A stretch of DNA of 64,000 nt from Eledone cirrhosa. Lineage: Eukaryota. Shown here piece after piece: positions 3,432 to 39,689 of the stretch. Location of the stretch: the NCBI GenBank assembly GCA_964016885.1, contig OZ024743.1:245892001-245956000 (forward strand). Reading direction: 5' to 3'. The notes beneath the pieces were generated by a model, which saw nothing but the letters and a program-made list of their open reading frames with translations, was not told the DNA's origin and searched no databases. Position 1 is the first letter of the stretch. Every line of letters begins with the position of its first letter. The position numbers were made by a program, and so were the translations under genes.

Positions 3432-5780
3432 ATAATATAAGATCAAAAGATGGTTAAAAGAGTTCCAATTATTTTATTATGCGCATTTCAAAAACAAATA
3501 TCATCATGAGATGATATCTGTGTTTTCATCAGGTAAAATAGGGATACATGATATGAAGGTTAAAAAACACTTGTGAATAGTGAAGCTTTAAATCAACATA
3601 TGAAAAATAATTTAAGATTGATGTGTGATATTGGGAAAAAGTGAGGGGGGGGGGCGATTGGAAAGGGTAAGGAAGAGGAGGAGATGAGAGTAAAGAATGG
3701 TGGGGGAGGAGTATAAGAAGGAAGGATGAGAGAGGAGGAGAAATGGGTGATAGAGAGGGAGAGATAGCCTTTACAACTGAGAAAAATATATATTGTCTCA
3801 CACAGAAAAGTTAAAAAGCCGTTGGAAAATAATAGATAATTTAAAAGAATTTAAAATTAAAAGTTGATGAAGAGAAAAAGGGGTTAAGAATAATATTAAA
3901 TTAAGGTTTGTATATTGAAGGGTTTAATAATATGTGCGGGGAAAAGAAATTGTTAATATGAATTATTAAAATAAAAATATTAATGTTATTAAGGATATAA
4001 TGTGAAAAGAAGTAGAAGAGTGGATGAGTTATGAATTTAGAGGAATTATTTAGTGTTTAAGTTTGTTTTTATGTAATGTAATATGTGTGCGTAATATATG
4101 TAAATAGTTTGTTTAAAAATGAGCGCAGAAAGCAAAGAAGAAAAGAATGTTTAAGGAAGAAAATATCTAACATCAAAATATATATGTTTACGAAATATTT
4201 TCTAATGGTAATAATATAATATATTAAAGGAAATTAGTTAGGGTTTAAGTTTGTTTTTATGTATTGTAATATGTAATATGTAAAAGTCAAACGAGCATGA
4301 AAGGAAGAGATAAGGAACTTAAGGAAGAAAAATCTAACGTTAAAAAATGTTTATGTTTACGAAGGACTATTAAAAGTAATACTATAATTAATGTATTTAA
4401 AAGATGATAATAAATTTTATGGCCAATGATATGAAGAAAGATGGAGGAGTGGATATGTTGTGGTGAGTAATAATAAGAATTGAGAAGTAGTTAGGAAGAA
4501 AAAGTACAGATTAGAGGTTAGAAATTAAAAAGAAAAAAGAAAAGAGGAAGAAAGGAAAGTGATAAAGAGGAATGATATAGAATGAGTAACTTGTATTATA
4601 TAATATATAATAACTAATATTGAAATAAGGTAGAAAGATGGGTATATTTAAAAAATATATATATAAGCCTTTGAGAAAAAGGATTTTATGGAATGTTCTG
4701 TGGAATTTATGCAAGCAGAGAGAAAATAAATCAGTGCGTCTATTTATTATAGAATCTAAATTAGATATAATGGTAAATTTCTCAGATAGGCAAAGATTAC
4801 ACTTCTGGATAGGGAGGCATTCAAGTAGGGAGAGGCAGAACAAACTTTCCTTCAAGAGATGTTATAGTTAATATTTTTGTCTTTCAAGGACCATATGAGT
4901 TCTGAGAGTGCCGTGTTAGTTCTTTTAAGTTGGTATCTAAAAGACGAATTGTGATTATAAAATCTCACTTTGAAGGAGGTGGAAGTGGAACCGAAATAGG
5001 TAAAGGAATTGGTATCAGTTATAACTTTACATTCATAGACTAAGTTTTTTCAAGACAATGGTTATTGAGAGGACATTTAGTTTTAACAGGGCAATTACAA
5101 TTGCGATTAGAGAAATTAACAGAGTTATTAACAAGTGACCTAGTGTTATTTATAGGAGGAATTGGATTGGAGAAGTTATTTACGATAGGAATAATAGTTT
5201 CCTGATTTAGATTGGTATTATGAACATTCAACGAAGTTACGTTTGACGTCGTATTTGAGTTTGCAGAATCTAGCCTAGAGTTAACAATGACGTCGGGAGT
5301 ACTACTGCTATTATTATGACACTGTGTTGGAAGGATGTGATTTAATATTTAATATTTTATTGTTGTGTTTAGAGATAATGTTAGAGATGTTGGAGGAGGT
5401 GGAATAGGAAAATGTTATTGTATGTTTGTTAAATATTTTACTATAGATATGTGAGGGAGGGAAGCATTTATCTAAGGCCCTAAAGAATAGTTTAGGAATA
5501 TTATTATTAATAGAAATAGAGAAAGGAGCATTATACTAGATTATATTTTTGTATCTAGGTCTTTTATTTAAGTTATTGGAATGATCATAATTAATTATTT
5601 TACTGTAAGACCTAGGATTGGTTTCTTTACTGTATTTAATTTTATCAGGATAACCGGCTTTAGAAAGCGCATTATTATAGTAATTGGCGTTAGCATCAAA
5701 GATATTTTTATTAGAGGAAATTGAAATGCGCATAATAAAATACTTGGAACTCTTTTAACCATCTTTTGATCTTATATTAT
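3432..5780 (-). mobile_element. 5'-truncated, decayed Penelope-like element with 3' pseudo-LTR and an inverted pLTR tip (5723-5780)
   Basis: Fragmented ORFs RISISSNKNIFDANANYYNNALSKAGY, CNCPVKTKCPLNNHCL, CNLCLSEK. HHR at the 3' end. 5723-5780 is the reverse complement of ~3432-3490. Confidence 0.85.
3470..3540 (-). ncRNA. Hammerhead ribozyme (PLE pLTR)
   Basis: tattttac-CTGATGA-aaacacagatatcatc...gatgatatttgttttt-GAAA-tgcgca-TA-ataaaata. Confidence 0.8.
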
Positions 5781-5967
5781 GGTGGATTGGCAGTATCGGT
5801 AGAGGGTCGGACGCCATGCTTTCCAGCATAGTTACGTCCCTTTACGGACTGAGTTCAAATCCCGCCGAGGTTGACTTTGTCTTTCATCCTTACGGGATCG
5901 ATAAAATAAAAGTACCAGTAATGCACTGGATAATTGCTGGCCTTGTGCCTAAAGTAGAAAAATTATT
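5781..5967 (+). mobile_element. tRNA-derived SINE, full length
   Basis: A box TGGCAGTATCGG, B box GAGTTCAAATCC, same body and tail as 751-940. Confidence 0.85.
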
Positions 5968-6350
5968 TATACTCCAGTCCTACAAACTGTAGAGTGCTAC
6001 TTATCCGATATTTGCATTGCTTTATTGTGCTACAATAAAACTCACCTCCTACATATATATATATATTACGTTTTTTTATTGATATATATGTGGTTGCGTG
6101 CGTATGTATATATGTATTTATGTGTGTGGTTATCTGCGTGTGTTCATTTGTATTTCTGCATGCTCCAAGCTGCTTATACTTCAACAGGACACATATATCT
6201 ATTTGTAGTTTTACGTATGTGATTGTATTCATGTATAACTCTGTGTGTGACGTCTCCGTATCATTTCATATATATGTATATATGTGTCTGTGTGTTTGGG
6301 TATGTATGCTTTTGCAGACTAGTGTGTCTGTGCCATATATACATATATAT

Positions 6351-6682
6351 GTATATATGATGAAACACAGATACCAACACATCTGCATTTATATTGCAAA
6401 AGAAAATTTAGCCAGAATGAAGTATACTAATTATTATACTACAGTTTGTCCATATCGATTTAAAATAATAAATCAACAAAGACGAACTGCATTGCCAAAT
6501 GGCTATGATGTTTAGACACATTTAAATTTCAAACAGGACACATGTATCTATTTGTAGTTGATTTATTATTTTAAATCGATATGGACAAACTGTAGTATAA
6601 TAATTAGTATACTTCATTCTGGCTAAATTTTCTTTTGCAATATAAATACAGATGTGTTGGTATCTGTGTTTCATCATATATA
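6351..6682. repeat. Inverted repeat, ~125-bp arms, ~80-bp spacer
   Basis: 6351-6477 is the near-perfect reverse complement of 6558-6682. Confidence 0.85.
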
Positions 6683-6856
6683 TTAGTTTATACACGGCTC
6701 AGAAATATTTCCTTCTTCGAGCTAATTCCATTGTAAAAGAATTCATTACACTTAATAATATATATGTATATATGCATGTATGTGTATATATATATATGTA
6801 TGTGATATATGTGAGTGTGTATATGTATTTGTATATGTCTGTATATATGTTTGTAT

Positions 6857-7180
6857 ATAATAATGAAATTATTGTGTACAGTGCTCAGGTGCACTACAAC
6901 TTGTCAAAGGTGCATGTATAGTACATAGAATAATATACAAATGTCAAGGAAGTGAATAGTGTATGAATCATGATATACATGTGTATGTGTAAAAAGGGGG
7001 ATATCAGGCGAATCTCAGGAAGCATGGAGGTTTTAAAGGATGCAGTGTCTCGACAGCTAACAGCTGATGCAGGTAGTTTGTTCCATGCTTCAGCAACTCT
7101 GAGCGTGAAAAATGTTCCCGAAAGTCATGGGAACTGTGGTGTTTTCTGACTTTGTGGGCATGCCCACGTGTGTTAGACAC
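6857..7180 (-). mobile_element. CR1-type LINE 3' end fragment
   Basis: Matches the C-terminus (NTRGHAHKVRK) and 3' UTR of the CR1 copies at 7900-9760, 54224-55785 and 63150-64000. Confidence 0.85.
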
Positions 7181-38462: not shown

Positions 38463-39083
38463 TGCTGAGTTTTTGAGTATCAGGTATTTGGAGGCCGTGG
38501 GTTTAGCATAGTGTGAGTGGAGAATTTGGGCTCTCTCGTCTATAGTGTTAATTCAGAGTTCTGTGTCTAATACAGTTAGTCTATTGTTAGGCTGTTTGGA
38601 AGGGAAGTCGATAGTTACAGTTATACTCTGGTGTATGGAATTAGCTATCTGCTGGATGCTTTCCATCGTGCTACGTTCTAAATCAAACTTGTTAGTGCTA
38701 AACAGTGAGTGTGTTCTGTTATTAATTCTGGCAATATTACACAAATATGACCCTCCCCGAGTATAACAATATTTGTTTCGACACACGATTTCATATAAAA
38801 AACCTTGCAAAACTATATATATATATATATATATATATATATATATATATATATATATATGTGTGTGTGTGTGTATATATATATATATACATATATATGC
38901 CTCCATGGCTCATTCTACTTTTTCCACTTTGTAAAAATGACCATCGTGTTCCTCAAAAATAGGGAATACTAGCTTAGCTCCCTTTCATTGTCACATGACA
39001 CTGATAGTGGCACTGACTACTGTAATGGCCATTCTACACCGAATACAGTGGGCTAGTGTTTGACCTGTTCCAAGGAGGCTAAC

Positions 39084-39214
39084 TCCCCACCGATGAAGTT
39101 ACTCTTAGCCAATTAAATAATATTTAATAGCATTACCTAATTTCTGTGCACATCAGTCCAACCTGGACTGCCGCCAGTAGACAGGGTAACAGAATCTAGT
39201 GCCTAGTCTGGGGA
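39084..39214 (+). ncRNA. Degenerate hammerhead ribozyme with long stem II
   Basis: tcccca-CCGATGA-a-gttactct...agggtaac-a-GAAT-ctag-tgc-ctag-TC-tgggga. Stems intact, two core substitutions. Confidence 0.6.
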
Positions 39215-39577
39215 CAGAGAATTAAATCCTCTAACCACACAAAATCATTTCTCTCACTATTAATGTATAAATGTGCACTCTGCTTTCCTTTTTGGTTGCT
39301 ATCTTAATTGGTTGGTGGCTTAATTGGTTGCTTAATTAAAGCATTGAGTGAGTGACAGAACGGTCGGAGATACAACAGTTCTTTCAATGACTTTATTCCA
39401 ATATTATTAACTTTGCCTTTCATCCTTACGGGGTCGATAAAATAAAGTACCAGTAATACACTGGGATAATTGCTAACCTTGTGCCAAAATTAGAAACAAT
39501 TATTATATGTATATGTCCCAAGGCTCTAATACAATCAACACCATCAACACAGAGCTGGCATATCTAAGAACTGACTA

Positions 39578-39633
39578 ATTGCCTGATGAGGTCATAGCCA
39601 CTCAATGGCTTTCATCGAAATATATATAGCAGT
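39578..39633 (+). ncRNA. Hammerhead ribozyme
   Basis: attgc-CTGATGA-ggt..agcca-ctcaa-tggct..atc-GAAA-tatata-TA-gcagt. Confidence 0.72.
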
Positions 39634-39689
39634 AAATAAAGGATTATGAGTTCATGCAATTGACTTATGTTTCGTCACTATATATATAT

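What the first reader, a model, noticed from the sequence alone, without database searches (positions are those of the whole stretch)
5723..39682. Short inserted fragments begin at the predicted HHR cleavage site in three families
Seen: (a) the inverted arm 10975-11112 starts at gcagttc, 1 nt after TC|tgcagttc (cut after 11339). (b) The solo fragment 31857-31908 is the reverse complement of 39628-39682 and starts at TA|gcagt. (c) The inverted tip 5723-5780 starts within about 12 nt of TA|ataaaat, where tgaaatgcg is also microhomologous to the ORF (RIS codons). Inference: these are cDNA copies that ran off a ribozyme-generated RNA 5' end, a fossil record of in vivo cleavage. This fits models in which PLE reverse transcription starts internally near the RNA 5' end.
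Basis: partly seen in the sequence, partly recalled or inferred. Interest (0 to 1): 0.75.

Follow-up and report, generated by a model that had tools for sequence, protein, structure and literature searches.

The report
Ribozyme-cut footprint in one retrozyme family
Of three jumping-gene families flagged here, only one, a 438-base non-coding repeat, has copies that break off several times more often just downstream of its predicted self-cutting RNA site, which likely records cut RNA being copied back into the genome; sampled copies of the other two break mostly about 120 bases earlier.

Summary
The three hammerheads and fragments exist, but the three-family rule fails when other genomic copies are sampled.

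(a) holds. It belongs to a 438-nt retrozyme-like repeat. In a position-ordered sample, 28 of 99 arms end in the 26 nt 3' of the predicted cut, but only 5 of 71 in the next 25 nt. In pooled enriched samples the counts are 99 versus 13, with 11 exactly at +1. Microhomology does not explain this step. Most arms (71 of 99) still read through the cut.

(b) starts at +1 but is one founder junction amplified inside another repeat; its family shows no step.

(c) starts 14 nt upstream of the cut, so its template was uncut; 0 of 30 relatives end there.

Families b and c instead pile up at TC|ATATG, about 120 nt upstream (10 of 30, 11 of 30), a likely transcription start. Head-to-head insertions carry the 3' tail on one arm only (41 of 46, 16 of 17), which fits priming of both DNA strands.

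Best reading: run-off on cleaved RNA in a minority of retrozyme insertions; stalling at the folded ribozyme is the main rival. The scan noted this theme before on other DNA, with mixed verdicts.

The parts
10975..11112 (-). Family a inverted arm, +138 to +2 relative to the predicted cut; no tail; abuts (TA)n
11113..11517 (+). Family a direct arm, about -230 through the intact hammerhead to the end of the ~35-nt tail (about +175); part of a 438-nt non-coding tandem unit
11298..11347 (+). Predicted type I hammerhead of family a: 8-bp helix I, CUGAUGA, 4-bp helix II with an A.A mismatch at its base, GAAA, 3-bp helix III with a tetraloop; GUC cut after 11339
   Evidence: and the sequence
20245..20648 (-). 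Second family a copy in the window; reads through the hammerhead (cut after 20378 on the minus strand)
31858..31907 (-). Family b 3' end, +1..+50, embedded in a larger repeat (founder junction shared by at least 6 other loci)
31300..32330 (-). Host repeat that carries the family b fragment (upstream part about 420 nt, downstream part at least 550 nt); limits approximate, family not identified
39511..39678 (+). Family b pLTR-type copy from -118 (TC|ATATG, the family's modal 5' end) to +50; hammerhead core at 39583, palindromic ATATATAT helix III, cut after 39628
3432..5718 (-). Family c 5'-truncated Penelope-like copy: broken ORF, 3' UTR and pLTR with hammerhead (core 3532, palindromic ATGCGCAT helix III, cut after 3478); no tail
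5721..5779 (+). Family c inverted arm from -14 to about +45; its tail continues near 5966-6050 beyond another inserted repeat at 5780-5970
29671..29830 (+). Diverged family c pLTR copy starting near -120, the family's modal 5' end; cut after 29790

Best explanation
These are insertions into (TA)n microsatellites, likely made by Penelope-like retrotransposition, and only in the 438-nt non-coding family a do the copies' 5' ends pile up just 3' of the predicted hammerhead cut, likely because a minority of its RNA templates were already self-cleaved. Shown: fixed 3' ends downstream of each hammerhead; head-to-head arms with the tail on one arm only; a 3-5-fold drop in junction rate across the cut in family a; a sharp pile of 5' ends at TC|ATATG about 120 nt upstream in b and c. 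Inferred: (1) a Penelope enzyme nicks both target strands and starts cDNA at two internal sites (about +140 and +175 in family a). (2) Each cDNA runs until it falls off or reaches an RNA 5' end. (3) In family a, roughly 15-19% of arms that reach +26 are in excess of background; these would meet a cleaved 5' end at +1 and be trimmed back up to about 25 nt before joining the other arm or the target through 0-4 nt of microhomology. (4) The other ~70% of arms read through the site, on uncut or re-ligated circular RNA. (5) In ORF-linked families b and c, whose palindromic helix III is predicted to need a dimer, the template would be mostly uncut and its 5' end would be the transcription start in the pLTR.
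For: Position-ordered sample anchored at +26..+50 (1981 genomic matches; 99 of the first 100 analysed): 28 of 99 end at +26..+1, against 9.1 expected from the upstream background (p=4e-8) or 13.0 from the downstream background (p=6e-5); 5 of 71 end at -1..-25. Enriched sample: 81 at +1..+23 vs 9 at -1..-23 of 100 rows. A second enrichment gave 77 vs 11 of 100 rows, counted by eye. Pooled: inverted junctions 67:10 where a microhomology-weighted null predicts a 0.506 share downstream (p=7e-8 after survival correction). Junctions into (TA)n are 17:0, although TA microhomology is richer upstream. +1 is the most used position (11 of 99; 8 of 67 inverted, p=0.017 against the null). Two multi-unit copies read through one hammerhead and stop exactly at +1 of the previous unit (L072, L399). 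The same search design gave rate ratios of only 1.2-2.1 in families b, c, e and g, against 6.7-9 in a. Tail on one arm only: 41 of 46 pairs (22.9 expected) and 16 of 17 (8.5 expected). This agrees with two initiation sites and extension of both strands in PMC11167929. Peak at -117..-119 in 10 of 30 b copies, at -121..-126 in 11 of 30 c copies and at -120..-126 in 12 of 22 c2 copies.
Against: The excess is broad (+25..+1), not a sharp spike, and 7 of the 8 inverted +1 junctions use 3-4 nt of TGC(A) microhomology. A smaller 3'-anchored sample, partly overlapping the main one, gave a weak contrast: 12 of 43 vs 6 of 31. In the window's own insertion the partner arm reads through the hammerhead, and the two arms of a pair were not clearly coupled (Fisher p=1.0 for 14 unbiased pairs, p=0.076 for 32 pooled pairs). 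Family g (320-nt tandem unit, helix III able to fold as a monomer, variant core) showed no comparable step (11 vs 4 by eye, p=0.15). The link between signal and ribozyme type therefore rests on one family. Helix II of family a has an A.A mismatch where G10.1-C11.1 is usual, and cleavage was not measured. The transcription-start reading of the -120 peak is confounded by ATAT microhomology to the target and by the CATATG palindrome.
Confidence: 0.6

Rival explanations
1. Stalling, not cleavage: reverse transcriptase pauses and drops off at the folded hammerhead (helix I covers +1..+8) on intact RNA, so ends pile up just before and inside the helix and are scarce beyond it.
For: The excess is spread over 25 nt, with secondary peaks at +9 (8) and +11 (6). 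In family e about 17 of 57 downstream junctions sit at +10/+11 and none at +1..+3 (by eye). PMC11167929 found hammerhead mutants had no effect on insertion in vitro and no RNA-seq reads ending at the cut.
Against: The boundary falls at the cut nucleotide: 11 junctions at +1, then 0-1 per position from -1 to -20. 42 of 99 downstream ends lie at +8..+1, inside helix I. Families b, c, e and g also have a 5-8 bp helix I but no comparable step.
Confidence: 0.22
2. One reading: short fragments start at the cut as a general rule in all three families, each recording an independent run-off.
For: (a) ends at +2 and (b) at +1. Mild downstream excesses exist in b, c, e and g (rate ratios 1.2-2.1, nominal p=0.03 only for e, before at-risk correction).
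Against: (c) contains 14 nt from upstream of the cut. (b) is one amplified founder. 0 of 30 c copies and 2 independent events among 30 b copies lie within 5 nt of the cut. In b the cut abuts a TATATATA tract that matches the target, so junctions there are ambiguous.
Confidence: 0.05
3. Sequence bias or ascertainment: repeated TGCA/GCATG words, the CTGCAG palindrome, the hairpin in the anchor, or ordinary 5'-truncation bias produce the excess without any RNA end.
For: Microhomology strongly favours junctions (weight about 98 for 4 nt). The 3'-anchored sample shows a weaker contrast. Both arms of some insertions were counted.
Against: The microhomology-weighted null is symmetric across the cut (0.506), and the TA class shows 17:0. 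The hazard right behind a different anchor is low (0.36%/nt at +101..+76) and rises toward the cut, which is the opposite of short-copy bias.
Confidence: 0.13

Closest known systems
Metazoan non-LTR retrozymes (Cervera and de la Pena 2020, PMC7229834, passages read; Li, Clavereau, Pollet 2026, bioRxiv 10.64898/2026.07.22.740005, parts 1-3 of 5 read)
   Same: Non-coding tandem unit with one type I hammerhead; proposed to be mobilised by Penelope-like elements; linear and circular monomers are shown in vivo in other animals.
   Different: Those papers propose circular RNA as the template, and the parts read do not map genomic breakpoints. Here the junction step suggests linear cleaved RNA is also used. 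The unit is 438 nt, above the 170-400 nt of the 2020 abstract and inside the 51-972 nt of the preprint. Copies are mostly dispersed head-to-head insertions in (TA)n.
EN+ Penelope-like elements (Craig et al. 2021, PMC8557442, passages read; PAc of Anolis, Frangieh et al. 2024, PMC11167929, parts 1-3 of 4 read)
   Same: 5' truncation, an adjacent inverted 5'-truncated copy, a tail often at one end only, microsatellite targets, hammerhead in the pLTR, internal start of reverse transcription downstream of the hammerhead, uncut RNA as the main template (fits b and c).
   Different: The tail asymmetry is counted here per insertion (41 of 46, 16 of 17). A sharp 5' end about 120 nt upstream of the cut is found in b and c. 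The family c tail looks longer than 30-40 nt. The clade was not determined.
Minimal, dimer-dependent PLE hammerheads (Cervera and de la Pena 2014, PMC4209133, passages read)
   Same: Families b, c and e have short palindromic helix III; such motifs showed low or no cleavage as single copies in vitro.
   Different: Family a has a 3-bp helix III with a non-palindromic tetraloop.
R2 elements with 5' HDV-like ribozymes (Eickbush et al. 2013, PMC3774820, abstract only)
   Same: Precedent for reading a ribozyme cut from genomic 5' junctions, with variable microhomology-primed junctions when cleavage is at the element's 5' end.
   Different: Different ribozyme and enzyme. In R2 the cut defines the element's 5' end; here it marks a minority of copies.
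L1 twin priming (recalled, no call)
   Same: Both target strands prime cDNAs that are joined by microhomology into an inversion.
   Different: Here both arms start at the element's fixed 3' sites and often overlap in sequence, so two units or two RNAs may be needed.

Membership tests
Type I hammerhead ribozyme (family a) | Core CUGANGA and GAAA, NUH cut triplet, helices I-III with helix I open-ended | tested here: met
   CUGAUGA at 11306, GAAA at 11326, GUC, 8/8 pairs in helix I, 3-bp helix III
Type I hammerhead ribozyme (family a) | G10.1-C11.1 pair next to the core | tested here: inconclusive
   Helix II opens with an A.A mismatch before G-C pairs; a similar N.A opening recurs in other window cores (43139, 62446, 7573)
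Type I hammerhead ribozyme (family a) | Self-cleavage at the predicted site | not testable with these tools
   Needs an in vitro or RNA-end assay; the minimum-energy fold of the isolated motif did not give the active fold
Non-LTR retrozyme (family a) | Tandem or circularly permuted unit of a few hundred nt with one hammerhead per unit | tested here: met
   438-nt unit in L072; two successive hammerheads in L302
Non-LTR retrozyme (family a) | No protein coding | tested here: met
   Longest stop-free frame in the doubled unit is 110 aa; no tblastn hit of the window's PLE ORFs to the window copy
Non-LTR retrozyme (family a) | Expressed as linear and circular monomer RNA | not testable with these tools
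   No RNA data were available to lay
EN+ Penelope-like element (families b, c) | pLTR with hammerhead, 5' truncation, inverted 5' copy, one-sided tail, microsatellite target | tested here: met
   (the tail test has only one pair for b)
EN+ Penelope-like element (families b, c) | C-terminal GIY-YIG endonuclease | tested here: inconclusive
   No relevant Pfam hit for 5 window ORF pieces. GIY-YIG-like words (for example YIGAT, YIGET) were seen by eye, and the label is recalled. The c element and DNA 1.3-1.5 kb upstream of b pLTRs match these ORFs by tblastn (E 5e-4 to 1e-27)
EN+ Penelope-like element (families b, c) | Telomerase-like reverse transcriptase domain in the same ORF | not tested
   No full-length copy was retrieved

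The most novel reading that the evidence does not exclude
5' breakpoints of Penelope-mobilised repeats are a readable, family-by-family record of which RNA ends existed in the germ line: a hammerhead-made end in retrozyme a (about a sixth of arms), a transcription start in ORF-bearing families b and c, and two initiation sites used one per DNA strand by a dimeric enzyme. Genome assemblies alone would then measure in vivo hammerhead activity and show that linear cleaved retrozyme RNA, not only circles, is integrated.
Probability: 0.35. Interest if true: 0.68.

Novelty: new variant of a known kind. Interest (0 to 1): 0.45.

Why it matters
The role of hammerheads in Penelope-like elements is open. 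PMC8557442 calls it unclear, and PMC11167929 found no effect on insertion in vitro and no reads at the cut. The breakpoint counts split the question by family: a cut-site footprint in one retrozyme, and none in two ORF-linked families, whose copies instead mark a site about 120 nt upstream. This gives exact, cheap predictions for RNA-end mapping and for the existing in vitro PLE assay. Interest is therefore moderate.

Tried and rejected
Rfam scan: 114 matches, no hammerhead family among them, nearly all miRNA-like hits on microsatellites and palindromes.

A DNA search with the whole b pLTR returns only the 40 best copies and is biased to long ones, so it was not used for breakpoints.

Enrichment for family c was swamped by subfamily c2 (4372 matches); only the true junction rows were tallied by eye, 17 vs 10. 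Enrichment for family g was defeated by a subfamily.

One search lost rows through over-strict de-duplication (28, 25 and 19 of 30) and was replaced.

The idea that the footprint tracks a monomer-competent helix III was tested on e (no step, as predicted) and g (no clear step, not as predicted). It is left unproven.

The test of whether both arms share one RNA was inconclusive. Tail arms were not significantly shorter than tail-less arms (10 of 14; 18 of 32).

Sequencing runs: no RNA holder listed; nothing was laid.

The protein atlas gave no answer for the ORF at 37590-38552. Pfam gave no relevant family.

No empty (fragment-free) copy of the host repeat of (b) turned up among the loci held; no dedicated genome search was made for it.
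Full report
Setting. The window lies on contig C4 of a 3.0-Gb genome, G000. It is full of (TA)n tracts and repeats inserted into them. A scan for a hammerhead core with three helices found 14 distinct cores against 0.17 per shuffle. Rfam listed no hammerhead family. Positions below are relative to the predicted cut; +1 is the first base after it. 'Junction' means the furthest point to which an arm aligns upstream, so it includes any microhomology.

Checking the three cases. 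(a) The arm 10975-11112 is the reverse complement of +138..+2 and joins, through GC, a direct copy that begins near -230 and reads through the hammerhead to a tail at about +175. (b) 31858-31907 is exactly +1..+50 of the copy at 39629-39678. Its upstream flank of more than 230 nt recurs with the same or a deleted form of the junction in L032, L050/L051, L160, L178, L408 and L409, and so does the downstream flank. It is one founder junction amplified with a host repeat: a single valid data point, not a solo insertion at this locus. (c) The arm starts at 5721, which is -14. Thirteen other ORF copies displayed read KRISNLSS or a close variant with other codons. The window has the ORF up to 5718, then AA, then the arm, with only an imperfect TTGA.AT match about 4 nt further along the ORF. 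Bases -7..-1 can only come from uncut RNA.

What the families are. Family a is a 438-nt unit that repeats head to tail and has no long frame; its 3' anchor has 1761 exact matches. That is the anatomy of a non-LTR retrozyme (PMC7229834, passages; bioRxiv 10.64898/2026.07.22.740005, parts 1-3 of 5). Families b (3140 matches) and c (2261) are pLTR-like ends linked to ORF fragments that match the window's Penelope-like ORFs. Pfam did not name the domain, so the GIY-YIG label rests on motifs seen by eye. All three have fixed 3' ends abutting microsatellite and variable 5' ends. In head-to-head insertions the tail is on exactly one arm in 41 of 46 family a pairs (22.9 expected if independent; one locus entered twice) and 16 of 17 family c pairs (8.5 expected). 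These pairs come from all loci held, including enriched sets. The inverted copy and one-sided tail are described in PMC8557442 (passages). Two internal initiation sites bracketing the tail, extension of both strands and a predicted dimer are in PMC11167929 (parts 1-3 of 4). I infer one initiation site per target strand.

The breakpoint test, family a. An anchor at +26..+50 has 1981 matches. Of the first 100 by position, 99 were recovered and aligned; one was missing after de-duplication. 28 of 99 end at +26..+1 (1.28%/nt), 5 of 71 at -1..-25 (0.29%/nt) and 44 of 71 over -1..-262 (0.37%/nt). Expected counts for +26..+1 are 9.1 from the upstream rate and 13.0 from the rate at +101..+26 (p=4e-8 and 6e-5), so the excess is about 15-19 of 99. 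Two searches that reject intact copies gave 81 vs 9 of 100 rows in symmetric 23-nt windows and 77 vs 11 of 100 rows by eye. These samples overlap. Pooling 192 distinct anchors gives 116 junctions in +26..-25: inverted 67:10, (TA)n 17:0, other 15:3, plus 4 at +26. A null weighted by observed microhomology puts 0.506 of junctions downstream (p=7e-8 after allowing for survival). +1 is the commonest position, with 11. L072 and L399 pass one hammerhead and stop at +1 of the preceding unit.

Against this reading for family a. A 3'-anchored sample of 65 arms showed 12 of 43 vs 6 of 31. The excess is broad. Seven of the eight inverted +1 junctions use TGC(A) microhomology. Both arms of some insertions were counted. 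Arms of a pair were not clearly coupled. 71 of 99 arms read through the cut, so uncut or re-ligated RNA is the main template even here.

Families b and c. In position-ordered samples, 4 of 30 b copies end within 5 nt of the cut; three of them are the founder chimera and one joins a TA-rich flank. For c the count is 0 of 30, and for subfamily c2 0 of 22. By-eye tallies of the 100 printed rows: for b, 39 at +27..+2, 14 at +1..-9 (13 of them ambiguous in the TATATATA helix), 20 at -10..-27, 4 chimera rows and about 23 read-through; for c, 17 vs 10 in 19-nt windows, with most other rows being read-through c2 copies. The rate ratios of 1.2-1.7 are not significant. The real peak is upstream: 10 of 30 b copies end at -117..-119, 11 of 30 c copies at -121..-126 and 12 of 22 c2 copies at -120..-126, all at TC|ATATG. 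The window's own b copy starts at -118 and a second c-like copy near -120. I read this as the transcription start in the pLTR of uncut RNA; PMC8557442 states that the Penelope pLTR harbours the start site. ATAT microhomology with the target and the CATATG palindrome may sharpen or even cause the peak, but the longer TA tract at the b cut draws few junctions. The three c calls at -1211 probably mark divergence from the reference, not true ends.

Two further families as controls. Family e (493-nt tandem unit, palindromic helix III): 57 vs 36 by eye over 29 and 28 nt, 7 read-through, none at +1..+3 and a pile at +10/+11; the script on 30 loci gave 19, 8 and 3. Family g (320-nt unit, TTGATAA core, 4-bp helix III): 11 vs 4 by eye of 100 rows, p=0.15. 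The strong step was thus seen in one of five families. Its link to helix III type agrees with PMC4209133 (passages: palindromic minimal motifs cleave poorly as monomers) but is not established.

Mechanism. Most likely (0.6): two-strand priming at two internal sites; cDNAs run to drop-off or to an RNA 5' end; in family a a minority of templates end at the hammerhead cut and are trimmed and joined by microhomology; in b and c templates are uncut and end at the pLTR start. Rivals: stalling at the folded ribozyme (0.22), sequence or sampling bias (0.13), the three-family rule (0.05).

Novelty. Five literature searches returned results, and one more concerned dimeric hammerheads. In the listings and the parts read I saw no genomic breakpoint map against a hammerhead cut in PLEs or retrozymes. 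The library lacks most subscription papers, and I did not read any supplements; Fig. S2 of PMC11167929 shows genomic copy ends and may bear on this. The R2 precedent is PMC3774820 (abstract only). Earlier unchecked notes of this scan describe the same theme in this and other genomes with mixed verdicts; a sequence look-up for family a found none. My family-level reading was recorded before that look-up. Verdict: a real but family-restricted signal in known kinds of element; interest 0.45.

Noticed in passing
window 23405-27120: Near-perfect 1.86-kb-armed inverted repeat (99.6%) of two Penelope-like ORF 3' halves, head to head, centred near 25260; similarity continues outward to about 22175/28358.
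   Followed up: no
window 37097-38772: Another Penelope-like ORF (37587-38552, minus strand) with a short inverted arm 38700-38772; 98% protein match in L095/L096. No hammerhead core was found there.
   Followed up: partly
window 10506-10877: Perfect 372-nt palindrome between (TA)n tracts (100% arm identity), probably a young head-to-head insertion.
   Followed up: no
window 43898-52248: About 8 kb of GGT-rich triplet repeat with very long open frames; one reads as a Gly/Ile/Tyr-rich protein (GGGIGGYG), reminiscent of structural Gly-rich proteins (recalled).
   Followed up: no
window 9995-10220 and loci L456-L485: Family g: 320-nt tandem hammerhead unit; most copies seen carry the core TTGATAA (U3/A8 in place of C3/G8), while the window copy has CTGAGGA.
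   Followed up: partly
window 29030-29310 and L154: Family e: 493-nt tandem hammerhead unit that contains an internal TA tract; junctions pile at +10/+11.
   Followed up: partly
subfamily c2, loci L184-L207: Many near-symmetric head-to-head pairs about 240-260 nt apart, both arms ending at the CATATG palindrome.
   Followed up: partly
family a, -252..-300: Junction rate rises again near the unit boundary and tail (7 of 34, then 9 of 27); this could be a transcription start or collision with the partner arm.
   Followed up: no
window 60315-61217: ORF resembling a PIF1-type helicase of Helitron-like elements, by motif (recalled), next to a 27-nt tandem array at 59959-60388.
   Followed up: no
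window 7967-9787, 54324-55820, 63160-64000: Several LINE-type reverse transcriptase ORF copies, 86-92% alike.
   Followed up: no
window 11539-11841, 14004, 15562-15918, 16730-16949, 42933-43730, 62196-62808: Further hammerhead-bearing short repeats, several as head-to-head palindromes.
   Followed up: no
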